Shown here piece by piece: positions 4,808 through 63,187 of a stretch of DNA of 64,000 nt. The notes below the pieces were generated by a model. That model worked only from the letters and a program-made list of their open reading frames with translations. It was not told where the DNA came from and did no database searches. The stretch's first letter is position 1, and every line of letters begins with the position of its first letter. The stretch comes from Pseudomonadota bacterium. GTDB lineage: Bacteria > Pseudomonadota > Alphaproteobacteria > Micavibrionales > CSBR16-224. A program made the translations under genes and the position numbers. The stretch lies in contig CP053449.1 of NCBI GenBank assembly GCA_013285465.1, forward strand, positions 1,445,540 to 1,509,539, read 5' to 3'.

Positions 4808-5368
4808 ATGGCTGACGACAAGATACTGACGCAAAAATTTCAGGACACGCTGAAAAACCTCCGCAGCAATACGGAGACCTGTGCCGTGCTTGAGAAACTC
4901 AGCGCAGCCCTTAGTGACGTCCAGCAGGCGTTGGCACAGGAAGGTGTCGCCTTTGGCTTTTGCTTTTCACATTACGATACCATCTCTCCCACACTTTCCT
5001 CCGGTCTAAAGCAGAAATCCGATAAAATTCTGGAACGCTCTGTCACAAGGCAATGCGCCGTCACCTACCATATTGACGGGCAGGATTATTCTTTGGCGCT
5101 GGCACGTTTCAATGATACCCATTACCGCACGCATTGGGAATTTATCGGTAGCCACAGCTTTGAAGACCGTTCCAAAGAAAGAGATGACAACTATGATGCC
5201 GTCGTATCCCCAATAGAAAATTTTCGTTTTGATTCTGAGAACGAAAGCGATCCTTTGACCGATCTGAAGAGCTATCTTGTTGAACAGGCCGCAAAACAGA
5301 AATTCCTGCAAGCCTATGATGCAAAAAGCCAGCCGCGCCGTATCAAAAGAACCGCGCGTCCATCGTAA
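4808..5368 (+). CDS. hypothetical protein with basic C-terminus (distant paralog of 7755..8210)
   Basis: 186-aa ORF with ATG start and its own promoter-like element. No recognisable domain. Ends ...SQPRRIKRTARPS. Confidence 0.6.
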   Translation: MADDKILTQKFQDTLKNLRSNTETCAVLEKLSAALSDVQQALAQEGVAFGFCFSHYDTISPTLSSGLKQKSDKILERSVTRQCAVTYHIDGQDYSLALARFNDTHYRTHWEFIGSHSFEDRSKERDDNYDAVVSPIENFRFDSENESDPLTDLKSYLVEQAAKQKFLQAYDAKSQPRRIKRTARPS

Positions 5369-5383
5369 GAACTTCCCTGAAAT

Positions 5384-6436
5384 CTAGTTTAGGAAACGGC
5401 CGCTTTTATCGCTGCCGACTTTCCCTTCAAATAACTCGACCTGTTCTTCAACAGCGCCGGAATCCTCAAAGGTCGCGATGTGAAAAGCCGCATCTCCCGC
5501 ATTGACCAGCGGCAGCGTTGCCAGACCGACGACAATCCCCGTCTTGCGGGCACGGATTTCGAAAACATCCCCGCCGAACGGGTCGGAGATAAGCCCCAGC
5601 AGCTGGTTCTTTTTGACTCTTGCCCCCAAATGCGTTTCCGCTTGCAGAATGCCGCTATGGGGGGCCCGCACCCAGTGCCGCGACCGCGCCACGAATACCG
5701 TCTTTTTCTTTTCATCCTCTTTCTCAGCCGGCGTTTTCTTACGCGTACGCGGCAACATGCCGATCTGCCGCATCACCGACAAAACACCCTGCAAGCCGCA
5801 GCGTATGACCTGTTCATTGAATTTCAGCGCTTCGCCGCCCTCAAACAATACCAGCGGAATGCCGCGCTCATCCGCTGCTTCACGCAAAGAACCATCAACG
5901 AAATTGGCATTAATCAACACCGGCACTTTGAAAGCATGCGCCATCTCCAGCACCGCCGGATCATCGAGATTGGCGCGGATATGCGGCAGATTGGCGCGGC
6001 TGAATCCCGCCGTATGCAGATCAATCCCATGTGTGCATTTTTCAAGAATCTCGGTGGTGAAAATATGCGCCAATTGTGCCGCCAATGATCCGTCACCGCT
6101 GCCGGGGAAATAGCGATTCAAATCACGGCCATCGGGCAAATAGCGGGACTTGGTGTTAAAGCCGAACACATTGACAATCGGCACGGCAATCAGCGTTCCT
6201 TTAATCTTGCCAAGCGCCTTATGCCCCAGCAACCGCCGTATAATATCGACACCGTTGATTTCATTTCCGTGAATGGCGGCGCAGACAAACAGGCGCGGCC
6301 CGTCTTTCTTGCCGCGGACAACTTCAATCGGCACATTCATTTCAGTGAAGTCATACAGCCGCGCGACATGCAGATTAACCCGCATCCGCTGCCCCGGTGC
6401 GATTGTTTCTCCTGCAATGATCAGATTCTCGCCCAT
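5384..6436 (-). CDS. succinylglutamate desuccinylase/aspartoacylase (AstE/AspA, M14-like) family protein
   Basis: 350-aa ORF with the HGNEINGV zinc-binding motif. Sits immediately downstream of rimK, a common pairing. Confidence 0.82.
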   Translation of the reverse strand: MGENLIIAGETIAPGQRMRVNLHVARLYDFTEMNVPIEVVRGKKDGPRLFVCAAIHGNEINGVDIIRRLLGHKALGKIKGTLIAVPIVNVFGFNTKSRYLPDGRDLNRYFPGSGDGSLAAQLAHIFTTEILEKCTHGIDLHTAGFSRANLPHIRANLDDPAVLEMAHAFKVPVLINANFVDGSLREAADERGIPLVLFEGGEALKFNEQVIRCGLQGVLSVMRQIGMLPRTRKKTPAEKEDEKKKTVFVARSRHWVRAPHSGILQAETHLGARVKKNQLLGLISDPFGGDVFEIRARKTGIVVGLATLPLVNAGDAAFHIATFEDSGAVEEQVELFEGKVGSDKSGRFLN

Positions 6437-6448
6437 TGATATCTGCCG

Positions 6449-7351
6449 TCAGCCTTTGTTCAAGCGTGATTTCTTCTTGGAGGCCGCCATGATTTCAAGA
6501 TGTTCAATCATCAGCGACGCAACATCTTTTCCTGTCGTTGTCTCAATGCCCTGCAATCCGGGAGAGCTATTCACTTCCAGAATCAGCGGCCCGCGGTCAG
6601 AGCGCACAATATCAACCCCTGCGACCTGCAGCCCCATCGCTTTGGTCGCGGCAACCGCCAATTTGCGCTCCGCCGGTGTGATCTTGACCTTTTCAGCGCT
6701 GCCGCCGCTGTGCAGGTTGGAACGGAAATCTCCCTCTGCAGCCTTGCGCATCATCGTTGCCACAACCTTCTCGCCGACGACAAAACAGCGAATATCCGCC
6801 CCGCCTGCCTCTTTGATAAATTCCTGCACCAGAAAATGCGCATCCAGACCGCGAAAGGCCTCAATCACGCTTTCCGCCGCTTTCTTGGTTTCCGCCAGAA
6901 TAACGCCTTTCCCCTGCGTGCTGTTCAACAGCTTGACAATCAGCGGCGCACCGCCGACAAGACTGATCAAATCACCGGTATTATGGGTGGAATGCGCAAA
7001 ACTGGTCGAGGGCATTCCCAGCCCCTTCCGCGCCAGCACCTGATGGGCACGCAACTTGTCACGGGCGCGAACAATTGCCAGCGATCCGTTCAGGCTGTGA
7101 ACACCGTCCATCTCGAACTGGCGCACCACAGCCGTGCCGTAAAAAGTGACGGAATTGCCGATACGCGGAATAACCGCATCAAATTCCAGTATCTCGTCAC
7201 GGAAATGCACATCCGGCTGGTTCGGATTGATATTCATGAAACAGCTAAGCACATCAATCACGCGTACCTTGTGGCCGCGCGCACGGGCGACGTCAAGCAG
7301 ACGTTTGGTGGAATAGATGGACGCATCGCGCGACAGGATACCGATCTTCAT
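6449..7351 (-). CDS. rimK: RimK-family ATP-grasp alpha-L-glutamate ligase
   Basis: 300-aa ORF: [34 protein letters not shown]..., with ATP-grasp blocks ([33 protein letters not shown]...ILEVNSSPG). Confidence 0.92.
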
Positions 7352-18679: not shown

Positions 18680-18704
18680 GTTACCGCGTTTATCTCCTCA
18701 GAAG

Positions 18705-18732
18705 TTGACATGATAGCCTCTTATGCTATGAT
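18705..18732 (+). promoter_or_regulatory. sigma70-type promoter candidate for 18890..19663
   Basis: TTGACA (18705..18710), a 16-nt spacer, then TATGAT (18727..18732). This would give a leader of about 150 nt. Confidence 0.4.
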
Positions 18733-18889
18733 GCGGCTGTGCTTGTTGGCAAGCCTGCTCGTTCGTGCAAAGATTTCATCGGCCAATATCAATAGATAAT
18801 GTAACCTTATCAAGTTTGTTATCTGATCAAAGTTTACGAACGCTAAAATATTCAGATAATCGGCTTGAGTAACATAAGGATATGTTATC

Positions 18890-19663
18890 ATGACACCTAT
18901 AAACTTTTTCAAACTCCAAGCAAAAAATCTTTTCAAAGATTATAAAACCCAAACACCTTATATTGATGAGGTGAATGGCCGCTCCTACTACAAATACACC
19001 CCCCAATATTTCGATATAGAGCGCATTTCCTTAAAATATGATTGGGATGAAGAAAATTTCAGTCTAATGAAAGCACAGCATCTCTTTGCACTTATGCTCG
19101 GATTTGACAAATGGACACATTTAGTGAAAGCCTCAGATGTAGAATTAGAGCTCACGAAACTATTATGGGACAATCAACATAAAATTTCCTTAGAAGACTG
19201 GCAGATGTATATTGCCAACGTAGAATTCGATAACAGCATTACTCTCAGCACTACGGATGAAATAGAAATCTTGAAACAAGTCTTTATTAATGTGGATGGG
19301 CATCACAACCCTTTTGGAGACTATCGCCTGAAGAAAAACCGACACCGTGTAGCCGAGACACCACAGCAAACACCCACGATCAGCACAGCTCCGCAAATTA
19401 CCTCTCTTCCCTTAGACCAGGCAAATCGTGCAGAATTCATCGAAGCAGCCAACAGAGTTTTTGAAGCCGTCATATGGCGAATGGAACCGAACAACCCGGA
19501 ACAAACACGCAAACTTTGGAACGCAGAAAATTATATTGATAACCTTCTATTGACTGACGATATGCTGCCCATCAGCAAGGACTATGCGCTATCATTGATA
19601 GATGCTTTTTTGGTTCACCATGTCCTTGATCTCGCTGTGCAAGCCGACAAAATGGCGGCATAA
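18890..19663 (+). CDS. hypothetical protein (AT-rich orphan)
   Basis: 257-aa ORF with AAGGA SD 9 nt upstream of the ATG. Composition is more AT-rich than alaS. No domain I can name. Confidence 0.6.
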   Translation: MTPINFFKLQAKNLFKDYKTQTPYIDEVNGRSYYKYTPQYFDIERISLKYDWDEENFSLMKAQHLFALMLGFDKWTHLVKASDVELELTKLLWDNQHKISLEDWQMYIANVEFDNSITLSTTDEIEILKQVFINVDGHHNPFGDYRLKKNRHRVAETPQQTPTISTAPQITSLPLDQANRAEFIEAANRVFEAVIWRMEPNNPEQTRKLWNAENYIDNLLLTDDMLPISKDYALSLIDAFLVHHVLDLAVQADKMAA

Positions 19664-19715
19664 TCTTATGGATAACAAATTACAGAATTAACTCTCTAAA
19701 TTTATAGAACAAGAC

Positions 19716-19755
19716 AAAAAGAAAAGACTGCGGACATATCCGCAGTCTTTTTTTA
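19716..19755. terminator. bidirectional intrinsic terminator
   Basis: Perfect 10-bp stem AAGACTGCGG/CCGCAGTCTT (19724..19733 and 19740..19749) with a 6-nt loop. An A-rich tract lies upstream and a T run downstream. It sits between convergent genes. Confidence 0.8.
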
Positions 19756-19775
19756 TTCTGATCTGTCAGAAGTAA

Positions 19776-20000
19776 TCAGGCTTCGCTGACACCTGCGGCG
19801 TCTTCGTCCTCATCATCTTCTTCCAGTTCAAGCGTACCGCTGGGATCTTGCTCCAGCAGATCGGCGACTTGCTCATAAACATCAGCATTGTCGTTCATCT
19901 GCTCTTTCAGCGGCTCATTCTGTTCGCCGACATTGCGGAAAAAACCTGCGGCATCGCGCAGAAGCTTTACAGCAAGATCGGAATAGGTCGTTGTTGCCAT
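19776..20000 (-). CDS. small highly acidic hypothetical protein (74 aa)
   Basis: ATG-initiated ORF ending in LELEEDDEDEDAAGVSEA. It is followed by the bidirectional terminator. Confidence 0.5.
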   Translation of the reverse strand: MATTTYSDLAVKLLRDAAGFFRNVGEQNEPLKEQMNDNADVYEQVADLLEQDPSGTLELEEDDEDEDAAGVSEA

Positions 20001-20197
20001 TGTCTTTATATCCTTTTATCCGTTGTTTTCGTGTCCGTTGATTACCGTTCCGGAACTCCTTGTCCTTTTCCAAGACTATCACAGGCTTTTTCCTCTGTCA
20101 CCCGCCCCCGCCAAGTTTTTTAAGATTCTCATGGATTATAACCGGATTCTTGACATCGCCAGCATTATGTAATATTGTATTTCCCTGAAACCAATAT

Positions 20198-20944
20198 ATG
20201 GATCAATGTAAAATGCCGACAAATGCCGGAGAAAATCCCGCCCAGTTCTTTTTGGATGCCGTAAAAAACGGCAGTAAAAGCGGCGTTGAGGCCGCATTGC
20301 AACTTGGCGTGCAGATTGATGCCCCGATCGACGGTGACCTGACGGCGCTGCATATTGCCGTACAGCAACGGGACTATGATATGGTTGTCGAATTGCTGGC
20401 GCAGGGCGCAAATCCCAATATTCCGGACAGTCTCGGCGATACGCCCCTGTTTCTGGCGGCAGGTTACGGCGAAGCCAAAATCCTGACAAAACTGATTGAA
20501 AAAAACGGTGATGCCGATGCATTGAACAGTAGCAAGGCGAATGCCCTGATGCGCGCCGCCTATCACGATCATGCCGAATGCTGCGAAATCCTGCTGAAAC
20601 ACATGAAAACACTGAGCATCGACCATCAGGACAATTCCTACAGCACCGCTGTCATGTGGGCGGTCATCAGCGGACGCACAAAAGCACTGGAAGTGCTGTT
20701 GCAGCACGATCCCGATCTGAGCTTGAAAGACGGGCAAAACCGTACGGCTTTCGGGGTTGCCTCATGGTTCGATATGCTGGATGCCAATAATATGATGATT
20801 GACCATCAGAAAAACAGCCTTGCCGTTGCTGCGAAAGCCGCTTTTTCCGCGCAGGAGGCCGCCGAAAAACAAGCCCGCAACGAAACCCAGACCAGCAACC
20901 GCGTTAACCGTCATGCCGCCTTGCGCAGCTATCTGCGGCGCTGA
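20198..20944 (+). CDS. ankyrin-repeat protein with the LRxYL C-terminal tail
   Basis: 248-aa ORF with 4-5 ANK repeats (LTALHIAVQQRDYDMVVELLAQGANPN, GDTPLFLAAGYGEAKILTKLIEKNGD...). Ends ..NRVNRHAALRSYLRR. Confidence 0.85.
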   Translation: MDQCKMPTNAGENPAQFFLDAVKNGSKSGVEAALQLGVQIDAPIDGDLTALHIAVQQRDYDMVVELLAQGANPNIPDSLGDTPLFLAAGYGEAKILTKLIEKNGDADALNSSKANALMRAAYHDHAECCEILLKHMKTLSIDHQDNSYSTAVMWAVISGRTKALEVLLQHDPDLSLKDGQNRTAFGVASWFDMLDANNMMIDHQKNSLAVAAKAAFSAQEAAEKQARNETQTSNRVNRHAALRSYLRR

Positions 20945-47734: not shown

Positions 47735-48283
47735 ATGTCAAGCACTCCCCCGACAAGCACCCCATTGGGACAAATGCTGATTGCAGCCGTTGAAGACGGC
47801 GGGAGATTGTGGGAGATCAAAAACCTGATTGATGACGGTGCGCCGCTGAACGAAACAGACACCAAGGGTGATACGGCACTCATCAAAGCCGCTGCCAAAA
47901 ATGATTTTGAGCTGGTCGAGATTTTGTTGAATGCCGGATGCAGTCCGGACACGCCCGACCGCGACGGTAATACCCCGCTGATCCGTACCATTGAGATTAT
48001 CAAAGATGAAAGCAGCGCGCTGAATATTATCTGCGCCTTGATTGACCGCAATGCCGATGTGCTGGCAGTGAATGATCAGGGACATGATGTTATGTATTAC
48101 GCGGATAAATGGAAGGACTTTCATATCGGCATTCATTCTTTTCTGCGCAGCTATTCCAGTAGTATCGCCGCCGACCGCGACACAGCCGATACCGCGTCCG
48201 CCGCCCCCAAGGAACAAAAGCCCGCTTTTGGTGCGCGTCACACGAATTTAAGACAATATATCAAAAGAGGAATGAAAAAATGA
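47735..48283 (+). CDS. ankyrin-repeat protein with LRxYI C-terminal tail
   Basis: 182-aa ORF with ANK repeats (GDTALIKAAAKNDFELVEILLNAGCSPD, GNTPLIRTI...). Ends ..FGARHTNLRQYIKRGMKK. Confidence 0.85.
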   Translation: MSSTPPTSTPLGQMLIAAVEDGGRLWEIKNLIDDGAPLNETDTKGDTALIKAAAKNDFELVEILLNAGCSPDTPDRDGNTPLIRTIEIIKDESSALNIICALIDRNADVLAVNDQGHDVMYYADKWKDFHIGIHSFLRSYSSSIAADRDTADTASAAPKEQKPAFGARHTNLRQYIKRGMKK

Positions 48284-48816
48284 GCACACGCGATCTTGAT
48301 AATGAGTTGCTGGGCGCCATCAAAGATGCCGATTTTGCCAAAATGCAGCAATTACTGGAATGGGGTGCAAATCCCGATGCTGCTGATATGCTGGGTGACA
48401 CCGCGCTGATCTGGGCTGTGCGTGCCCCGATGTTTGCCGATGAGTATGATATGGATGAATTAACCGCTCGCCGTAGTTTCGCTGTCGAAGCTGTCAGACT
48501 GCTGCTGGAAAAAGGCGCAGATATCGACAAACCCAATAACCTGGGGCGCAGCGCCGCTTTTCAGGCCATCATGGACAAAAACATGGCACTGCTGACGGTT
48601 TTTGTCCAGCATGATGCCTCAATGCTGCTGAAAGATACGGCCGGGAATTCCATGGCCCGTTATGCAGAGCTGAGCAATGATGATGCCGTGCTGGAATGCG
48701 TTGAAAAAACCGCAAAGGCACAAATACAGGCTGCAGCATTACGCGCGGAAAAAGTCGAAGCCGTAAAAACGCGCCAGCAAAGCCTGCGCAGCTTTGTCCG
48801 TACACGGAAGATGTAA
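48280..48816 (+). CDS. ankyrin-repeat protein with LRxFV C-terminal tail
   Basis: 178-aa ORF with an ATGA overlap to the upstream ANK gene and an AGAGGA SD. ANK repeats present (GDTALIWAV..., VRLLLEKGADIDKPNNLGRSAAFQAI). Ends ..VKTRQQSLRSFVRTRKM. Confidence 0.85.
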   Translation: MSTRDLDNELLGAIKDADFAKMQQLLEWGANPDAADMLGDTALIWAVRAPMFADEYDMDELTARRSFAVEAVRLLLEKGADIDKPNNLGRSAAFQAIMDKNMALLTVFVQHDASMLLKDTAGNSMARYAELSNDDAVLECVEKTAKAQIQAAALRAEKVEAVKTRQQSLRSFVRTRKM

Positions 48817-48830
48817 TATTTCTTGAAGCA

Positions 48831-50174
48831 CTATTCTGTCGCGAGACACTCGTTTTCGAGCCAGTGAATATCAAAATCACCGTTGCGGAAATCCTCGTGC
48901 TGTAAAATGCGTGCATGCAGCGGCAGATTGGTCTCAATTCCGGCAATCACGCATTCTTTCAAGGCGCGGTGCATCCGCATCAAGCATTCTTCACGACTAG
49001 TACCGCGAATAATCATTTTCGCAATCAGGCTGTCGTAATAGGGCGGCACTTTATAACCTTCATAAACCGCACTGTCGATCCGCACGCCCAGCCCGCCCGG
49101 CGGGTGATATTTGGTAATGCGTCCCGGTGACGGGATAAAGGTTTCAGGATGTTCCGCATTAATCCGGCATTCAAAAGCATGACCGCGGAAGGTAATATCC
49201 TCCTGCTTGAAAGACAGCGGCAATCCTGCCGCAACGCGAATCTGTTCGCGAACCAGATCAATGCCTGTAATAATCTCGGTAATCGGATGTTCCACTTGCA
49301 GACGGGTATTCATTTCAAGGAAATAGAACTGCCCGTCTTCATACAGAAACTCAATCGTGCCGACCCCGCGATAGCCCATACGGCGCACCGTATCTGCCGC
49401 CAGCTCACCGATTGCTTTGCGCTGTGATTCCGTTAGTGCGGGAGACGGCGCTTCTTCGATCACTTTCTGGTGATTGCGCTGAATGGAGCAATCACGCTCG
49501 CCCAGATGGATGGCATTGCCGTGCATATCGCCGATGACCTGAATCTCAATATGACGCGGCGCTTTCAGGAATTTTTCGATATAAACGTCACCATTGCCGA
49601 AGGCGGCTTTCGCCTCGCTGGACGCCATTTTAAAAGCGTTTTCAAATTCTTCCTCCGTCGGGGCGACTTTCATCCCCTTCCCGCCGCCGCCGGCAACCGC
49701 CTTAACCAGTACGGGAAAACCCATTTTCTTGGCAACGGCTTTTGCCTCGGCAATATCACGGATCACGCCGTCAGAGCCGGGAATGACCGGCAGGCCGAGC
49801 TCCGCCACCGTCTTTTTCGCAACGGCTTTATCGCCCATCTGTTCAATATGCTCGGGCGTCGGGCCGATAAAGGTAAAACCGTGCTCTTCCACCATGCGGG
49901 CGAATTCCGCATTCTCGGACAAAAATCCGATGCCGGGATGAATCGCATCCGCATTGGTCAGAGACGCCGCCGTCAGAATCGCCGGAATATTCAGATAGCT
50001 TTCACGGGCAGGCGGTGCTCCGATACAAACGCTTTCATCAGCAAGACGCACCGCCATACTGTCCGCATCCGCCGTCGAATGAACGACAACGGTTTCAATC
50101 CCCATTTCGCAACAGGCACGGTGGATACGCAGGGCGATTTCTCCACGATTGGCGATCAGAACTTTTTTGAACAT
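48831..50174 (-). CDS. accC: acetyl-CoA carboxylase biotin carboxylase subunit
   Basis: MFKKVLIANRGEIALRIHRAC... with ATP-grasp blocks. ATG 50174 matches the usual AccC N-terminus. The track ORF extends to ATG 50228, which cannot be excluded. Confidence 0.93.
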   Translation of the reverse strand: MFKKVLIANRGEIALRIHRACCEMGIETVVVHSTADADSMAVRLADESVCIGAPPARESYLNIPAILTAASLTNADAIHPGIGFLSENAEFARMVEEHGFTFIGPTPEHIEQMGDKAVAKKTVAELGLPVIPGSDGVIRDIAEAKAVAKKMGFPVLVKAVAGGGGKGMKVAPTEEEFENAFKMASSEAKAAFGNGDVYIEKFLKAPRHIEIQVIGDMHGNAIHLGERDCSIQRNHQKVIEEAPSPALTESQRKAIGELAADTVRRMGYRGVGTIEFLYEDGQFYFLEMNTRLQVEHPITEIITGIDLVREQIRVAAGLPLSFKQEDITFRGHAFECRINAEHPETFIPSPGRITKYHPPGGLGVRIDSAVYEGYKVPPYYDSLIAKMIIRGTSREECLMRMHRALKECVIAGIETNLPLHARILQHEDFRNGDFDIHWLENECLATE

Positions 50175-56750: not shown

Positions 56751-57878
<1,128 letters not shown>

Positions 57879-57940: not shown

Positions 57941-57976
57941 AAATGCCCCGCCTTAAAAAGCGGGGCATCTTTTTTT
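57941..57976 (+). terminator. intrinsic terminator after ccrM (copy A of a duplicated hairpin)
   Basis: 9-bp stem ATGCCCCGC/GCGGGGCAT (57943..57951 and 57960..57968), an 8-nt loop, then a T7 run. Confidence 0.8.
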
Positions 57977-58181
57977 GATTTACTCTGCGACTGCTAACCG
58001 ATGCATCACTTCAGCAGGCTCAAGGACTTCGAACCCAACCTAGTGCTGCCCCCTTCCTTTAATATCGAAAAGCATGTAAATTATAGCTCTAAAATTGGCC
58101 TTCTAAACTGGAAATGACACATTTTAATCCCTACCAATACAATACCTTTCCCACACGAAGAGGGATAAGAAAAGAGATTAC

Positions 58182-60347
58182 ATGACGACAGAAAACGAGA
58201 AGCCGACTCCCTCTATAGTTTTTCATGCCGACAAGCCTATCCAATCCGTACAAGAAGACCGTTTGGGTTTTTCTCCCATTGCCGACAATCTAGCAACGTC
58301 GATTCTAAAGATGAATGCCGATGGCGGATTTGTTATCGGGATTGAAGGGCCATGGGGGTGTGGGAAATCAAGCATCCTAAATTTGCTTTGTGCAAAAATA
58401 AAAGACGAGCAAAATATATCGATTATCAAGTTCTCCCCGTGGATTATCGGCGATAAAGATAGCATGGTATCTTCTTTAGCGGAAGAACTGTCAGAGGCCA
58501 TAAAAAAAACAGGACAGCAAAACGAAAACCTTGCGAAAAAAATGAAAAAATACGGTAAGGCGGGGATAAAAAAAATCGCGCCATGGGCAGCATTAATTCC
58601 AACATATGGTGAGAATGCAAAGGAATTGTCCGATTTGCTTTCTGGCTCATTAACTGACCTTAAAGATGAACTGACGAGAGCTTTGCAAGCTATTAAGCAA
58701 ACTTTTGTCGTTATCATTGATGATCTTGACCGCCTTGAACCGGAGGAAGCCTTAGAGATCACGCGCTTGATCCGTGCAGTAGGTGACTTCCCAAACGTAA
58801 TATACATCCTCTGCTACGACAAAGAAATTTTATCTAAAAGCTTGGAAACTGCCCTCCATATTAAAGATGGAAACGCTTTCTTACAAAAAATTGTTCAAGC
58901 TAGTTTCTCCGTACCGAAACCAGAAGAATTTGACCTGCGAAACTGGATGAATAAAGAATGTCAGCTGCTTTACGAAGAGGTTACTGGCAAAAGCTTACCC
59001 GATAATCTCTCAAGCCGGTTACAAGAGGTTTGTTATACACATGGCGGAAAAATAGAAACGCCCAGAGAAATTAATTTAATTCTTAACTCATTAAAGCTGG
59101 CTTATCCGCCCATCTCTGAAAAGGTGGATTTCCCAGACCTATGCTGGCTTCATCTCGAAAAAATTAAGAATGATGCCTTTTATAGATGGATAGAAAACTA
59201 TTTAAATGCATTCTCAGTTGTTGTGCGCGGTGAAGGTCATCTGAATGGAGCTGGACAGGCAAAGATGACGCAAGAACTTTTAAAACATTTGCAGATTACA
59301 GATGATATAGAAAAACAATCAGCCATGCATACCATCATAAACCTATCAGAACATATCCCAGGGATAGATTATGTGTGGGGAGACGATAAAACGCTCGTCA
59401 TGACAAAGCCTACAGATGAAGAACTCTCAGCTTTAGAAAGAGGCCATAGACTAGGAAGTCCCTCACATTATCGCCTCTATTTCTCATTCGCCCAGCCTGC
59501 TGGAACGCTAGACGAATCCGAGCTATCTGCTATTATCAACAAAGCTAACAATAAAACACTTCATGCAGACGATTTTAATAAGTTTATTTATGCAAAGCGT
59601 TCTCAAGGAGGAACGATGTATTCCGTTCTTCTTGACAGACTAAATAGAACCCCTGTGGAGGTATTCACATCAGATGGTTGCGTAACACTTCTACAAGTCA
59701 TTGCGGAGAGTATTGACGATGCCAGACGCGAGGAAAAAGACGATGAGGCGCATTTTAAGATAGGAATCGGTGAAATTGGTAATAAGCTGTTTCAGAAGCT
59801 GCTACCTCTAATAGACCAAAAAACAACTTTTTTACAAGATTTTTTCACGAGCGGTGCTTCCGTAGGCTGGCTTGTTTCAAGCGTAATTGGAAACGAAATC
59901 TTTGCACATGGGAAAAGCGGACTCGCCAAGAAAGGGCAGCCCAGTCTTACAACAGAGGAACTAGAAGGTGCTATTCAAATCATCAATGAACGCCTTACTA
60001 GCACCGATCGCGATAAAATAGAATCTGTCCCAGACGCTCTTTCCTTCTTCTATAGATGGCAACAATCTGGGGACGATGGGGCAAAGAACTTAAAAGAGTG
60101 GATGGATGAAATCTCCGTCACAGATGCTGGTTTCCTCGAATTACTGGAAAAATGCAGAGGATATGTCGTGAGCACAAACGGAAATTATCGCCCTCTTAAC
60201 GAACGGGAATTAACACAGCTTTTCGGAAATTCTAAAGAGATTCTGGACAGAGTTCGAAACATCGCCTGCAATTTACAAAATGAGCCAGACTTAATAAAGC
60301 AAGCAGAAGAACTCATAGAGGCACATAAAATGGCACGAGACTTCTAA
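58182..60347 (+). CDS. KAP-family P-loop NTPase (soluble, no TM insert)
   Basis: 721-aa ORF with Walker A GIEGPWGCGKSS, Walker B VVIIDDLDRLEPEEALEI and the following IYILCYD block typical of KAP NTPases. Long helical C-terminal region. More AT-rich than its flanks. Confidence 0.82.
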   Translation: MTTENEKPTPSIVFHADKPIQSVQEDRLGFSPIADNLATSILKMNADGGFVIGIEGPWGCGKSSILNLLCAKIKDEQNISIIKFSPWIIGDKDSMVSSLAEELSEAIKKTGQQNENLAKKMKKYGKAGIKKIAPWAALIPTYGENAKELSDLLSGSLTDLKDELTRALQAIKQTFVVIIDDLDRLEPEEALEITRLIRAVGDFPNVIYILCYDKEILSKSLETALHIKDGNAFLQKIVQASFSVPKPEEFDLRNWMNKECQLLYEEVTGKSLPDNLSSRLQEVCYTHGGKIETPREINLILNSLKLAYPPISEKVDFPDLCWLHLEKIKNDAFYRWIENYLNAFSVVVRGEGHLNGAGQAKMTQELLKHLQITDDIEKQSAMHTIINLSEHIPGIDYVWGDDKTLVMTKPTDEELSALERGHRLGSPSHYRLYFSFAQPAGTLDESELSAIINKANNKTLHADDFNKFIYAKRSQGGTMYSVLLDRLNRTPVEVFTSDGCVTLLQVIAESIDDARREEKDDEAHFKIGIGEIGNKLFQKLLPLIDQKTTFLQDFFTSGASVGWLVSSVIGNEIFAHGKSGLAKKGQPSLTTEELEGAIQIINERLTSTDRDKIESVPDALSFFYRWQQSGDDGAKNLKEWMDEISVTDAGFLELLEKCRGYVVSTNGNYRPLNERELTQLFGNSKEILDRVRNIACNLQNEPDLIKQAEELIEAHKMARDF

Positions 60348-60384
60348 AGCATCCTAATTTTTCTGTATCCCTGATAAATAAAAG

Positions 60385-60419
60385 AAATGCCCCGTCTTCA
60401 CAGGCGGGGCATCTTTTTA
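60385..60419. terminator. bidirectional intrinsic terminator between the KAP gene and pepN (copy B of the duplicated hairpin)
   Basis: Stem ATGCCCCG/CGGGGCAT (60387..60394 and 60405..60412) with an 8-10-nt loop. A T run lies downstream and an A-rich tract upstream. Confidence 0.8.
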
Positions 60420-60439: not shown

Positions 60440-63187
60440 TTAGGCTGCCAGTGTGCCGCCGGAGGGTTTCGGCTCATTGCCTTTTGCCGCAGCGCCGTCA
60501 CGTGTTGCCAGCGCTTTGTCCACCAGTTCGCGGATACCTTTGTCCAGCTTCGGCGTGGCTTTGACGCGGTCGAGCTGCTCCAGCATCAATTTCTGGCGGT
60601 CTTTGTCGTAGCGTTTGAATTCCAAGAGCGGCTTGACCAGCCCCGCACCGACGCGCGGATTGATGGTGTTCAGCTTGATCACCGCATCGGCAAGGAATTT
60701 GTAGCCTTCCCCGTCTTTACGGTGGAAATGGCGCGGATTACCGGCGGCAAAGGCACCGACCAGCGACCGTACCTTATTCGGCACTTTCCAGCTAAAGGCT
60801 TCATGTTCCGTCAGTTTCTTGACGCGTTCCAGACCGTCGCCGCTGTCCATACGGGCCTGTACGCCCAGCCAGCTATCGACGATATTGGTGTTGCTTTTAT
60901 AACGGTCATAGAAATTATCCAGCGCCGCCTGCGTTTCCGGCTTGTCCAGCTCGGACAGCGCCGTCAATGCGCCGAGACGTTCCGTCATATTGGTTGCCTG
61001 ATCATATTGCAGTTTGGCAATTTTCGTTGCCTCATCGGATTTATCCGCCGCCAGATAATCCAGCGTCAGATTGTGCAGAGCGCGGCGTCCGACTTGCGCG
61101 GGCGTAACTTCGTATTTCTCGCCCGGCGGGGAGATTGTCGCGCTGTAAAGCATCGCCATATCGCCCTGATGCGCATCCAGAATCTGCTCTTTCAGCTTAT
61201 CCGCCGCATCCAGCAGCGCATCGGGATTCACGACATCCAGACTTTGCACAAGGATGCTGTAGGACGGCAGTTCCAGCATTTTCGCCACAAAGGCCTTATC
61301 GCCGGATTTCGCATCCGTCGCCAGCACATGACCAACGGCATTCAGCAGTTTGGTCGGCGCTTTCGCCTCATTACCGGCCTCGATATCTTTCGCCATATCC
61401 AGCACGACTTTGGCCATATATTCCTGCGCCGCATCAAAACGGTTATAGCCGTCGCTGTCATGCTTCATGCGGAAGACAAGCTCGTCCTCGCTGGCTTTGG
61501 TCATGACTTTGACCGGTGCGGAGAAACCGCGCAGGATGGAGGGAACAACCGGCCCTTCAACGCCTGTAAATTCAAAGACCTGCTTGTCCTTTTTCAGATG
61601 CAGAACCCGTGTTGTCGACCCTGCTTCCGTATCGCCTTTCAGCGTCAGCGGAATATCCTTGCCGTCCTGACCGATCAGACCGACGGAAATCGGCATATAC
61701 ATTGCCTCTTTCTCCGCCTGCTCAGAGGTCGGCTTGGTTTCCTGCTCCAATGTCAGGCGGTATGTTTTGCTTGCCGCGTCATATTCACCGCTATAGCGCA
61801 GTTCCGGCGTACCCGCTTGCGAATACCATTTGCGGAAATGCGACAGATCAAGGCCGGAGACCTCCTGCATCACATCGACGAAATCGTCACAGGTCACGGC
61901 CTGCCCGTCAAAGCGGTCGAAATATTCGTTCATCGCCTCGCGCCACGTATCCGTGCCCAGCAGCGTGCGCAGCATACCCAGCACATGCGAGCCTTTCTCG
62001 TAAATCGTGCCGGTATAGATATTGTCAAATTCGGCAACATGATCGGGACGGATCGGATGCGCCGTCGGGCCGGCATCTTCGATAAACTGCCGTGCTTTCA
62101 GGTCAGTGGCATCTTCGATATCCTTAATCGCCTGCGAATGCATATCCGCCGTGAACTGGCGGTCACGCAGAACGGTCAGGCCTTCTTTCAGCGTCAGCTC
62201 GAACCAGTCACGCAGCGTAACGCGGTCACCCGACCAGTTGTGGAAATATTCGTGGCCGATCACGGCCTCGATCGCAATCAGACGGTCATCCGTCGCGGTT
62301 TCCTCATCCCCTGCCAGCAGGCTGATATTAAAGATGTTCAGACCCTTGTTTTCCATCGCCCCGGCGTTAAAGCTGGTCGTAGCGACAATGTGGAAAACAT
62401 CCAGATCATATTCGCGGTCATAGGTGTCTTCATCCCATTTCATCGATTTTTTGATCGATTCCATCGCCCAGTCGATTTTATCTTCATAACCTTCCGGCGC
62501 GAAAATACGCAGCTCAACCTCGCGGCCCGAGCGCGTCACGAATTTATCCTCGATATAAGGCAAATCTCCGGCAACCAGTGCGAAAAGATAGGCCGGTTTT
62601 TTATGCGGGTCATCCCAGCTGATTTCATGGCGGCCATTACCCAGATCGGTGGTTTTGGTCGGGTCGCCGTTACCGTTTGACATCAGCAGCGGATATTTTT
62701 CCTTATCCGCCTCGACCGTGACATGGAAGGTGGACAACACATCCGGACGATCCAGATAATAGGTAATGCGGCGGAAGCCCTGCGCCTCACACTGGGTGCA
62801 GAAAATCTCCTCCTGCTCCGGAATATAAAGACCGGAAAGCATCGTGTTTTCTTTCGGATTAATCTCGTTTTCGATTTCCAGCGTGAAAGGCTGCTCCGGC
62901 GGGCGTTTGATAATCAGATGTTTATCCGTGACTTCAAAATCGCCGCGGTCAAGATTCTTGCCGTTAAGCTTGACGGAGACCAGTTTCAAATCCTCGCCGT
63001 TCAGCATCAGCGGACCGCCTTCGGGCGCATCAGGATTGCGGCGTACCGTCAATTTCGACTTCACCCGTGTTTCGGTTTCATGCAGGTCGAAATGCAAATC
63101 CGTTTCGTCGATCAGATATTCCGGCGGACGATAGTCCAGACGATCAAGTGCGTTTGAATCCGGATCAAAAAGAAAGTCGTTCGCCAT
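60440..63187 (-). CDS. pepN: aminopeptidase N (M1 family)
   Basis: 915-aa ORF with the GAMENKGLNIF exopeptidase motif and the HEYFHNWSGDRVT...E zinc motif. Confidence 0.95.
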   Translation of the reverse strand: MANDFLFDPDSNALDRLDYRPPEYLIDETDLHFDLHETETRVKSKLTVRRNPDAPEGGPLMLNGEDLKLVSVKLNGKNLDRGDFEVTDKHLIIKRPPEQPFTLEIENEINPKENTMLSGLYIPEQEEIFCTQCEAQGFRRITYYLDRPDVLSTFHVTVEADKEKYPLLMSNGNGDPTKTTDLGNGRHEISWDDPHKKPAYLFALVAGDLPYIEDKFVTRSGREVELRIFAPEGYEDKIDWAMESIKKSMKWDEDTYDREYDLDVFHIVATTSFNAGAMENKGLNIFNISLLAGDEETATDDRLIAIEAVIGHEYFHNWSGDRVTLRDWFELTLKEGLTVLRDRQFTADMHSQAIKDIEDATDLKARQFIEDAGPTAHPIRPDHVAEFDNIYTGTIYEKGSHVLGMLRTLLGTDTWREAMNEYFDRFDGQAVTCDDFVDVMQEVSGLDLSHFRKWYSQAGTPELRYSGEYDAASKTYRLTLEQETKPTSEQAEKEAMYMPISVGLIGQDGKDIPLTLKGDTEAGSTTRVLHLKKDKQVFEFTGVEGPVVPSILRGFSAPVKVMTKASEDELVFRMKHDSDGYNRFDAAQEYMAKVVLDMAKDIEAGNEAKAPTKLLNAVGHVLATDAKSGDKAFVAKMLELPSYSILVQSLDVVNPDALLDAADKLKEQILDAHQGDMAMLYSATISPPGEKYEVTPAQVGRRALHNLTLDYLAADKSDEATKIAKLQYDQATNMTERLGALTALSELDKPETQAALDNFYDRYKSNTNIVDSWLGVQARMDSGDGLERVKKLTEHEAFSWKVPNKVRSLVGAFAAGNPRHFHRKDGEGYKFLADAVIKLNTINPRVGAGLVKPLLEFKRYDKDRQKLMLEQLDRVKATPKLDKGIRELVDKALATRDGAAAKGNEPKPSGGTLAA

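What the first reader, a model, noticed from the sequence alone, without database searches (positions are those of the whole stretch)
57941..60419. AT-rich single-gene KAP NTPase islet bracketed by two near-identical copies of a terminator hairpin
The 721-aa KAP-family P-loop NTPase gene lies between ccrM and convergent pepN. Hand counts of a few 60-nt lines give a GC content in the mid-40s per cent for the gene, against the low to mid 50s for its flanks. The segment is bounded by two roughly 35-bp direct repeats that are also terminator hairpins. Copy A (57941..57976) is AAATGCCCCGCCTTAAAAAGCGGGGCATCTTTTTTT. Copy B (60385..60419) is AAATGCCCCGTCTTCACAGGCGGGGCATCTTTTTAT. They match at about 30 of 36 positions, and the differences are mostly in the loop. 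The simplest reading is an ancestral ccrM-terminator-pepN junction. An insertion of about 2.4 kb would then have duplicated the terminator, or integrated by recombination at it. This KAP protein lacks the TM insert typical of the family and has a ~450-aa helical C-terminal region. KAP and STAND-like NTPases recur in anti-phage defence islands, so a single-gene defence or abortive-infection role is plausible but unproven.
Basis: partly seen in the sequence, partly recalled or inferred. Interest (0 to 1): 0.6.

Follow-up and report, generated by a model that had tools for sequence, protein, structure and literature searches.

The report
PifA-type phage-defence gene inserted at terminator
A single foreign gene, a full-length relative of the F-plasmid phage-exclusion protein PifA, has been inserted exactly at the shared terminator hairpin between two core genes and left one hairpin copy on each side; it is a clean but fairly ordinary case of a known defence family on a very small, recombinase-less islet.

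Summary

**The gene.** The 721-aa KAP NTPase (58182-60347, +) is a PifA-family protein. It matches the PADLOC PifA model over its full length (E 1.4e-197). It aligns end to end with F-plasmid PifA (28% identity, E 3e-92). Like PifA, it has no transmembrane segment.

**The islet.** It has 41% GC (GC3 39%), against GC3 53-64% in neighbouring genes. It is the lowest-GC 2.4 kb stretch of the window.

**The repeats.** Two 34-nt direct repeats, 2444 bp apart, bracket the gene. Both are strong terminator hairpins, and no other copy occurs in the window.

**Empty sites.** Four related lineages (pepN 97, 85, 79 and 69% identical) keep the same synteny. Each has ccrM -> one hairpin <- pepN and no gene in between. 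In the closest relative the single hairpin aligns to both copies: its left arm resembles copy A and its loop resembles copy B, as expected for attL/attR-type products of one reciprocal crossover.

**Mechanism and generality.** The islet encodes no recombinase. Five of 31 other PifA-like genes in metagenome contigs are also single-gene islets between direct repeats, two of them tRNA gene segments. None of 64 control genes shows this.

**Limits.** The defence function is inferred from homology only, and the integration mechanism is unresolved. Verdict: new member of a known kind, moderate interest.

The parts
56757..57878 (+). Left core flank: CcrM-type N6-adenine DNA methyltransferase with a C-terminal RAMA domain. 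It is not part of the islet.
   Evidence: Pfam N6_N4_Mtase plus RAMA. NCBIfam CcrM is the best hit at 613 bits, below the equivalog cutoff of 830. The gene is present next to pepN in all empty-site relatives.
57941..57974 (+). Hairpin copy A. It is the left direct repeat (attL-like) and the intrinsic terminator of ccrM.
   Evidence: -18 kcal/mol, followed by a run of 7 T. Its left flank is orthologous to the left flank of the single hairpin in L086 and L087.
57975..58181 (+). The 5' non-coding part of the inserted DNA. It contains a promoter-like site at 58114-58143 (ATGACA-18-TACAAT) and a purine-rich ribosome-binding region.
   Evidence: One search gives a 10/12 consensus match, which is not evidence of function. 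There is no credible small ORF and no Rfam match. The segment has no counterpart in the empty sites.
58182..60347 (+). PifA-family KAP P-loop NTPase gene (721 aa). It is the only gene of the islet.
   Evidence: PADLOC PifA model E 1.4e-197, covering residues 14-716. BLASTP to F-plasmid PifA WP_000698737.1 gives E 3e-92. Pfam KAP_NTPase. Walker A G56-K62 and Walker B D180/D181/D183/R184 lie among the invariant columns of 112 homologues. GC3 is 0.386.
60385..60418 (+). Hairpin copy B. It is the right direct repeat (attR-like) and a bidirectional terminator for the PifA-like gene (+) and pepN (-).
   Evidence: -21.8 kcal/mol on the + strand, -19.2 on the - strand. Its right flank is orthologous to the right flank of the single hairpin in the empty sites.
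60440..63187 (-). Right core flank: aminopeptidase N (pepN). It is not part of the islet.
   Evidence: TIGR02414 pepN_proteo scores 1134 bits, above its cutoff. It was used to find the relatives.

Best explanation
**What it is.** This is a 2.44-kb single-gene islet of foreign origin. It integrated by a reciprocal recombination at the bidirectional terminator hairpin that ccrM and pepN share. The hairpin therefore now stands on both sides of the insert, as attL/attR-like direct repeats. The host is an alphaproteobacterium whose nearest named relatives are Micavibrio sp. MAGs.

**What is shown.**
- The cargo is a member of the PifA family, the KAP P-loop NTPases without transmembrane helices.
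- The gene is foreign and was inserted at this site.
- Hairpin A still terminates ccrM.
- Hairpin B terminates both the new gene and pepN.

**What is inferred about expression.** The gene must be transcribed from its own promoter inside the islet.

**What is inferred about function, from F-plasmid PifA.** The protein probably acts as a stand-alone abortive-infection-type sensor and effector. Recognition of a phage protein by the large conserved helical C-terminal region would be coupled to the NTPase. The outcome would be a membrane or energy lesion that stops phage multiplication.

**What is inferred about integration.** The islet encodes no recombinase. Integration was therefore catalysed in trans, either by a host or helper-element site-specific recombinase acting on the dyad-symmetric hairpin, or by homologous recombination with a circular copy carrying a near-identical hairpin.
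For: **Family membership.**
- PADLOC PifA HMM matches over the full length at 656 bits. The next best model (PDC-S20) scores 82.5 bits, and QatA about 70.
- Alignment with F PifA runs end to end, with 28% identity over 727 columns and E 3e-92. The protein compared has the same accession as the gene next to pifC on plasmid F.
- Conservation extends across the whole length in 112 homologues, including the C-terminal motif R423-L-G-S-P-x-H-Y-R-x-Y-F.
- There is no transmembrane segment, as in PifA (PMC13001434).
- The family is large: 1555 clusters at 50% identity with E <= 1e-30.

**Foreign origin.**
- GC3 is 0.386, against 0.53-0.64 in neighbours, and the islet is the lowest-GC 2.4 kb of the window.
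- GANTC observed/expected is 0.78 in the islet against 0.40 in the window.
- The closest homologue among 5.8 billion proteins is only 57% identical.

**Insertion.**
- Four empty-site lineages have one hairpin and unchanged synteny.
- The single hairpin of L085 aligns to both A and B.
- The repeat ends exactly at the A-tract and T-tract of the terminator.

**Crossover signature.**
- Across the 34 nt, A and B differ at positions 11, 15, 17 and 19.
- The L086 hairpin has the A base at position 11 and the B bases at 15, 17 and 19.
- The relative is therefore left(A) plus right(B).

**Generality.**
- Five of 31 other PifA-like genes are bracketed by direct repeats scoring >= 15.
- The cross-locus null reaches a maximum of 14, and 64 control genes reach a maximum of 11.
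- Two of the five repeats are a tRNA-His 3' end and a tRNA-Ser 5' half, which are classical integrase targets.

**PifA function.** T7 exclusion with membrane depolarisation and nucleotide leakage is described in PMC13001434, PMC8594841 and bioRxiv 10.1101/2024.10.26.620412.
Against: - There is no phenotype. Identity to the only characterised member is 28%.
- The natural role of PifA itself is disputed. PMC13552941 and PMC8594841 note a very narrow target range and suggest defence may not be its primary function.
- pifC, which precedes pifA on F, is absent here.
- No recombinase, inverted repeat or conserved end motif was found in this or the other bracketed islets, so the integration mechanism is inferred from topology alone.
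- The crossover signature rests on only four variable positions.
- The whole genome could not be searched for further hairpin copies.
- Loss of the islet from the closest relative by A x B recombination gives the same sequence pattern as gain.
Confidence: 0.72

Rival explanations
1. The gene is ancestral at this site, and the relatives lost it by recombination between the two hairpin copies. On this reading the islet marks deletions in the relatives, not an insertion in this lineage.
For: The L086 hairpin is exactly left(A) plus right(B), which is what an A x B deletion would leave. The loop of copy A (TTAAAAA) resembles the loop of the more distant L087 (TTAAAAAA), so A may carry the older loop.
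Against: Loss in all four empty lineages (97, 85, 79 and 69% pepN identity) would need several independent precise deletions. L089 and L254 have unrelated hairpin sequences at the site, with no trace of a second copy. The gene's GC3 is 0.386 against host values of 0.53-0.64, and its GANTC content is unadapted, so it is foreign and not long resident. Loss in L085/L086 alone cannot be excluded, but that still implies an earlier insertion.
Confidence: 0.08
2. The two hairpins are similar because they belong to a dispersed REP-like or terminator repeat family, or by convergence of GC-rich terminator stems. On this reading they have nothing to do with the insertion.
For: GCCCCGC/GCGGGGC stems are common in intrinsic terminators in general (own knowledge). 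The whole genome was not available to count copies.
Against: Only two copies occur in 64 kb, and they lie exactly around the one compositionally foreign gene. There is no other copy in 255 loci. The outer flanks of A and B are the two halves of one orthologous intergenic region in the relatives, and the relatives' single hairpin aligns to both.
Confidence: 0.03
3. The repeat is a long target-site duplication made by a transposition-like, staggered-cut insertion. It is not an att-type or homologous crossover product.
For: The direct repeats lie exactly at the borders of the inserted DNA, and no integrase is present.
Against: A 34-35-bp duplication is far longer than known transposase target duplications (own knowledge). 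There is no transposase and there are no terminal inverted repeats inside the borders. A fresh duplication should give identical copies, but the differences are arranged as a crossover chimera relative to the empty site. Other PifA-like islets use tRNA gene ends, which are integrase-type targets.
Confidence: 0.07
4. The protein is not an anti-phage factor in this host. It could be a selfish or regulatory NTPase with another role, or a silent passenger.
For: PifA's own physiological role is questioned, and it restricts only T7 and one relative among the BASEL phages (PMC8594841; PMC13552941). No partner gene or regulator is present. No phage of this Micavibrio-like lineage is known to me.
Against: The ORF is intact with every invariant family residue. 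The sequence is identical in several independent assemblies. The family lies in variable, low-GC, TA-rich or prophage contexts typical of defence genes. Other KAP NTPases with unknown C-terminal regions were shown to protect against phage in a Walker-B-dependent way (PMC13552941).
Confidence: 0.2

Closest known systems
PifA of the E. coli F plasmid (Pif system in PADLOC and DefenseFinder)
   Same: Both have about 720-740 aa, with an N-terminal KAP P-loop domain, no transmembrane helices and a conserved helical C-terminal two-thirds. They align end to end with E 3e-92, and the PifA HMM matches over the full length.
   Different: Identity is only 28%. The gene here is chromosomal, in a Micavibrio-like alphaproteobacterium rather than on an enterobacterial plasmid. 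There is no pifC repressor upstream and no pifB. The trigger and the effect are unknown here.
[quoted passage not shown]
   Same: These are single-protein systems with a KAP domain plus a large uncharacterised C-terminal region. Defence depends on Walker B and on the C-terminal region.
   Different: EF_KAP has transmembrane helices, was reported not to act by abortive infection, and was found through linkage to small serine recombinases. None of these applies here.
RdrA of RADAR, and ORC/Cdc6-type and STAND ATPases
   Same: These are the best structural matches of the predicted model: Foldseek E 1e-5 for RdrA, then ORC/Cdc6, NRC2, NOD2 and Avs3.
   Different: TM-scores are only about 0.2-0.3 and identity is 10-13%. 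No RdrB deaminase is adjacent. The similarity is at the level of the ATPase core plus helical domains, not family membership.
Cis-mobilizable elements (CIMEs), defined as att-flanked islands lacking integration and transfer genes (PMC5704250)
   Same: The inserted DNA lies between direct repeats of the target site and encodes no recombinase. An empty site exists in relatives.
   Different: CIMEs are described as decayed ICEs or IMEs at integrase targets such as tRNA or gene 3' ends. Here the target is an intergenic terminator hairpin, the element is a single gene, and no decayed mobility genes are visible.
Xer-dependent modules (IMEX, pdif modules); comparison from my own knowledge, not tested
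   Same: These are small gene modules bounded by short dyad-symmetric recombination sites and moved by a recombinase encoded elsewhere.
   Different: The hairpin bears no resemblance to dif-type XerC/XerD sites, and nothing links Xer to this locus.

Membership tests
KAP P-loop NTPase (Pfam PF07693) | Match to the KAP_NTPase domain model above the curated threshold | tested here: met
   183 bits against a cutoff of 20, covering residues 30-308 and profile positions 1-290 of 293.
KAP P-loop NTPase (Pfam PF07693) | Intact Walker A and Walker B motifs | tested here: met
   G56, W58, G59, G61, K62, D181, D183 and R184 are invariant columns of the 112-sequence alignment, D180 is nearly invariant (>= 90%), and all are present in the window protein.
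KAP P-loop NTPase (Pfam PF07693) | Transmembrane helices associated with the NTPase domain, typical of many members | tested here: not met
   No 19-residue window exceeds a Kyte-Doolittle mean of 1.6; the maximum is 1.11. The same holds for F PifA (1.27), and PifA is stated to lack transmembrane helices (PMC13001434). This excludes the transmembrane subgroups, not the family.
PifA family (PADLOC PDLC02361) | Full-length match to the PifA profile, clearly better than to other KAP defence models | tested here: met
   E 1.4e-197, 656.6 bits, residues 14-716 on profile positions 5-716 of 720. The next best models are PDC-S20 at 82 bits and QatA at 70 bits.
PifA family (PADLOC PDLC02361) | End-to-end homology with the experimentally characterised F-plasmid PifA | tested here: met
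   BLASTP E 3e-92, residues 17-692 against 14-718. The subject is WP_000698737.1, the gene downstream of pifC on NC_002483.
PifA family (PADLOC PDLC02361) | pifC-pifA operon context as on F | tested here: not met
   There is no ORF between hairpin A and the start codon, and the neighbours are ccrM and pepN. This is a feature of the F system, not of the protein family.
PifA family (PADLOC PDLC02361) | Phage exclusion with a membrane permeability lesion triggered by phage proteins | not testable with these tools
   It needs expression and phage challenge.
QatA (Qat system) | Equivalog-level match and QatBCD neighbours | tested here: not met
   NCBIfam QatA scores 50.9 bits against a cutoff of 600, over the N-terminal 100 residues only. 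No neighbouring system genes are present.
RADAR RdrA | Close structural and sequence similarity, plus an adjacent RdrB adenosine deaminase | tested here: not met
   Foldseek TM is about 0.3 with 11-13% identity. There is no PDB hit by sequence and no second gene in the islet.
Integrated genomic islet (site-specific insertion) | Direct repeats at both borders | tested here: met
   34 nt at 88% identity, 2444 bp apart.
Integrated genomic islet (site-specific insertion) | Empty site with a single repeat copy in relatives with conserved flanks | tested here: met
   L085/L086, L087/L088, L089 and L254.
Integrated genomic islet (site-specific insertion) | Deviant composition | tested here: met
   GC 0.414 against 0.518, and GC3 0.386 against 0.53-0.64.
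Integrated genomic islet (site-specific insertion) | Element-encoded integrase or transposase | tested here: not met
   The PifA-like ORF is the only gene between the repeats.
Cis-mobilizable element (CIME) | att sites retained and integration/transfer genes absent | tested here: met
   Same evidence as the rows above. Definition from PMC5704250.
Cis-mobilizable element (CIME) | Derivation from an ICE or IME, and mobilisation by a related element's integrase | not testable with these tools
   No remnant mobility genes are visible. The rest of the genome was not available.
REP-like dispersed repeat | Many copies scattered over the genome | tested here: inconclusive
   Only the two copies occur in the 64-kb window and in all related loci. 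The remaining roughly 2.6 Mb of the genome could not be searched.

The most novel reading that the evidence does not exclude
PifA-family genes may travel as minimal, recombinase-less, one-gene cassettes. Each would consist of a promoter, the gene and a terminator that doubles as an attachment site. They would integrate by reciprocal recombination at dyad-symmetric host sites, namely terminator hairpins and tRNA stem-loops, using a recombinase supplied in trans. The window would then be a caught-in-the-act example, with both the filled and the empty site preserved. The 5 of 31 bracketed homologues would be further examples.
Probability: 0.2. Interest if true: 0.6.

Novelty: new member of a known kind. 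Interest (0 to 1): 0.38.

Why it matters
- It places a PifA-type defence candidate in a Micavibrio-like lineage. Micavibrio are predatory bacteria whose phages and immunity are essentially unstudied (own knowledge).
- It shows that the PifA family is large and found in several phyla. There are at least 1555 clusters at 50% identity, and source names include Nitrospinota, Terriglobales, Vicinamibacterales and many alphaproteobacteria.
- It offers an unusually clean natural experiment for how a single defence gene enters a core-gene junction without disturbing it. The split terminator still serves all three genes.
- If the repeat-bracketed pattern in homologues holds up, it would point to a simple in-trans route for spreading single defence genes.

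Tried and rejected
- **Neisseria-type uptake sequence.** I suspected one from the look of the hairpin. None of 8 DUS dialects is present, and the 10-mer core occurs twice.
- **Genome-contig scan with pepN.** It returned only distant relatives (<= 57% identity). The source species is not in that collection. One hit, L081 (Micavibrio sp.), has pepN->rnhB->ccrM in a different order. The empty sites came instead from the protein search plus contig look-ups.
- **More distant relatives.** At 57-60% pepN identity, synteny is lost, so these say nothing about the junction.
- **PDB by sequence.** No hit.
- **Rfam on the islet.** Only chance-level hits with E about 1.
- **Small ORFs upstream of the gene.** Nothing credible.
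- **Shared end motifs.** No k-mer of 8-10 nt is shared by 3 or more of the six repeat-bracketed islets.
- **Integrases next to the bracketed homologues.** None was found. There is only an IS6-family (DDE_Tnp_IS240) transposase beyond the tRNA in L097.
- **Prophage-borne PifA-like genes.** 0 of 12 have flanking repeats, as do the two nearest homologues L090 and L091.
- **Literature link between RdrA and KAP.** None found.
- **Records not held.** The KAP founding paper (PMC416466) and accession AP001918 were unavailable; NC_002483 was used instead.
- **Integron cassette reading.** Rejected by inspection. The hairpin lacks the GTTRRRY/RYYYAAC cores of attC sites, which is my own knowledge of attC.
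Full report
**1. The observation**

- A 34-nt direct repeat, AAATGCCCCG-N10-CGGGGCATCTTTTT, stands at 57941-57974 and 60385-60418. The copies are 88% identical and 2444 bp apart.
- The stem pattern occurs nowhere else in the 64-kb window, against 0.06 expected from shuffles. A looser pattern also finds only these two.
- Both copies are the top terminator-like sites of the region.
- They fold at -18.0 and -21.8 kcal/mol, and no shuffle does as well. The minus strand of copy B folds at -19.2 kcal/mol before a U-rich tract. Copy B can therefore terminate both the inserted gene and the convergent pepN.
- Between the copies lies one ORF, 58182-60347, of 721 aa, with a Pfam KAP_NTPase domain.
- The flanking genes are a CcrM-type methylase with a RAMA domain and aminopeptidase N.
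GC is 0.416 and GC3 is 0.386, against GC3 0.53-0.64 in six neighbouring genes.
- The islet is the minimum of all 2444-bp windows of the 64 kb, about 4.6 sd below the mean.

**2. What the gene is**

- The PADLOC model for PifA matches residues 14-716 over profile positions 5-716 of 720, with E 1.4e-197 and 656 bits. The next defence models score 82 bits or less.
- A tblastn search of plasmids finds more than 1000 records, mostly Klebsiella and Escherichia plasmids.
- In one of them, and on plasmid F itself, the matched gene is the one immediately downstream of pifC. It has protein accession WP_000698737.1.
- BLASTP against that protein aligns end to end, with 28% identity over 727 columns and E 3e-92.
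- KAP stands for "Kidins220/ARMS and PifA", and PifA is noted to lack the family's transmembrane helices (PMC13001434; PMC13552941).
- The window protein likewise has no hydrophobic segment. Its maximum Kyte-Doolittle 19-residue mean is 1.11, against 1.27 for F PifA.
- An alignment of 112 full-length homologues (29-57% identical) is conserved over its whole length. The Walker A and B residues are invariant or nearly so. There is also a strongly conserved C-terminal motif around R423-F434, and invariant residues W336, Y340, W563 and R604.
- AlphaFold2 on that alignment gives a confident model, with pLDDT 92.7 and pTM 0.88. It shows a P-loop domain followed by about 400 residues of helical domains.
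- No solved structure matches by sequence.
- By fold, the best hits are RdrA of RADAR, ORC/Cdc6 and NLR/Avs-type ATPases, at low TM-scores of 0.2-0.3. The similarity is therefore at the level of the ATPase class only.
- The family is large, with 1555 clusters at 50% identity at E <= 1e-30.
- Source names span alphaproteobacteria, Nitrospinota and Acidobacteriota.
- Full-length members also occur in about a dozen provirus contigs, usually at much lower GC than their surroundings.

**3. The insertion**

The exact protein occurs in at least four assemblies, always in the same context. Three of them are 100% identical to the window over 7.8-15.8 kb. The record names it a MAG of "Pseudomonadota bacterium".

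A search with pepN gave a graded series of relatives at 97, 85, 79 and 69% identity. The 85% one is named Micavibrio sp.. Their contigs show the following.
- L087 and L089 share the window's gene order on both sides (GCS2, methyltransferase, rnhB, ccrM | pepN, bamE, ..., lptD). The shorter contigs L085/L086 and L254 show the same junction, with ccrM only partly covered.
- In every case ccrM and pepN are directly convergent, with one hairpin and no gene between them.
- In the closest relative (L085/L086, 90.8% nucleotide identity over 3.6 kb), blastn aligns the right flank up to window 60385 and the left flank up to window 57975.
- The two alignments overlap in L085 by exactly the 35 bases of its single hairpin.
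- The multiple alignment shows that the left flank of copy A and the right flank of copy B are the two halves of the relatives' intergenic region. The inner flanks have no counterpart.

At 57-60% pepN identity, synteny is lost, and one Micavibrio sp. has pepN upstream of rnhB-ccrM. The junction is therefore specific to a subclade, in which only the window's lineage is filled.

**4. How it got there**

The islet contains no recombinase, no transposase, no terminal inverted repeats and no small ORF or known RNA.

The four positions at which A and B differ (11, 15, 17 and 19 of the 34 nt) are informative.
- The L086 hairpin has the A base at position 11 and the B bases at positions 15, 17 and 19.
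- It therefore equals left(A) plus right(B). That is the relation attB = left(attL) + right(attR) expected from one reciprocal crossover at the 5' edge of the loop.
- The loop of copy A (TTAAAAA) resembles that of the more distant L087 (TTAAAAAA), not that of L086. This is hard to explain by duplication of the resident hairpin followed by drift.

Two readings fit these facts.
- The incoming DNA carried its own near-identical hairpin, which also served as the gene's terminator in a circular form.
- The islet is older than the split from L086, and L086 lost it by A x B recombination.

Both imply recombination at the hairpin, and I cannot decide between them. A stem of 9-10 bp around a 6-8-nt loop has the dyad symmetry of a tyrosine-recombinase core site, as tRNA stem-loops do. 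This is my own knowledge and an inference, and it was not tested.

**5. Is this a one-off?**

I fetched 80 metagenome loci encoding PifA relatives. For each, I scored the best ungapped direct repeat between the 500 bp upstream and the 300 bp downstream of the ORF.
- Cross-locus pairs gave a maximum score of 14 over 150 pairs.
- 39 other long genes in the same loci and 25 in the window gave a maximum of 11.
- The window scored 22. Five of 31 other PifA-like genes scored 15 or more. Against 0 of 64 controls this gives a Fisher p of about 0.003, by my own arithmetic.

The five cases are as follows.
- **L093:** 21 nt exact, which is the 3' end of a tRNA-His.
- **L097:** 48 nt, the 5' half of a tRNA-Ser up to the anticodon loop.
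- **L100:** 27 nt, the 3' end of a HAD-hydrolase gene. The islet GC is 0.43, against 0.56-0.58 in the flanks.
- **L095:** 18 nt exact.
- **L099:** 78 nt.

The repeat spacing is 2.45-2.81 kb in every case, so each islet holds one gene. No integrase lies beside them, and their inner ends share no motif. Provirus-borne copies and the two nearest homologues show no such repeats.

The pattern matches the definition of a cis-mobilizable element, which is att-flanked and lacks its own integration genes (PMC5704250). The recurrence around the same single gene suggests a small cassette moved in trans rather than repeated decay. This remains a lead and is not yet an established finding.

**6. Function**

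Shown:
- family membership;
- intact motifs;
- an autonomous transcription unit bounded by terminators, with a promoter-like site at 58114-58143, which is only a consensus match.

Inferred:
- The protein would act like F PifA, which aborts T7 infection. PifA is triggered through gp1.2 and the capsid protein gp10, and causes membrane depolarisation and nucleotide leakage (PMC8594841; PMC13001434; bioRxiv 10.1101/2024.10.26.620412).
- Other KAP proteins with uncharacterised C-terminal regions protect against phage in a Walker-B-dependent manner (PMC13552941).

Caveats:
- Identity to F PifA is 28%.
- pifC is absent.
- Two of these papers doubt that defence is PifA's main role.

**7. Verdict**

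The gene is a new member of a known defence family that current tools already recognise. The insertion is well documented, with preserved filled and empty sites. The hairpin-as-attachment-site aspect, and its recurrence among homologues, is the only part that goes beyond the ordinary. Interest is moderate.

Noticed in passing
L099 4645-7289 (metagenome contig Ga0008835_101813): A PifA-like ORF (4977-7187) starts 66 nt after a full-length Rfam group II intron D1-D4 match (RF02005, 4692-4911, 174 bits). This is roughly where an intron-encoded protein would begin. A 78-nt, 95% direct repeat brackets it. It is unclear whether the gene sits inside a group II intron remnant.
   Followed up: partly
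window 18700-20200: This is a second low-GC patch (0.42-0.46). It lies after alaS and before an ankyrin-repeat gene. It holds an ORF at 18890-19663 (+, 257 aa) with no Pfam match, and has no flanking direct repeat.
   Followed up: partly
window, whole; islet 57941-60419: The CcrM target GANTC is strongly avoided in the window (100 observed against 248 expected, ratio 0.40). It is much less avoided in the islet (7 against 9.0, ratio 0.78). This is consistent with recent foreign origin, but the difference is weak statistically.
   Followed up: yes
L081 7965-12329 (MAG Micavibrio sp. JALSJP010000001.1): In this more distant relative, pepN, rnhB and ccrM are colinear on one strand. The pepN block has therefore been inverted or moved relative to the window's clade.
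   Followed up: partly
L090 136-5462 (Logan SRR28842985 contig): The closest homologue (57% identity) is preceded by an overlapping 102-aa ORF of unknown family. It is followed by two HipA-type toxin genes and an HTH gene, which is a toxin-antitoxin or defence-island type of context.
   Followed up: no
window 48182-50000 and 20198-20944; L001 1-635: Several ankyrin-repeat proteins are encoded in this small genome. This is unusual for free-living bacteria and fits a host- or prey-associated lifestyle.
   Followed up: no
window 58182-60344 (protein residues 153-386): The protein matches PHROG phrog_8614 (unknown function, E 7e-44). About 13 full-length relatives lie in IMG/VR provirus contigs, usually at 10-20 points lower GC than their flanks.
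   Followed up: partly
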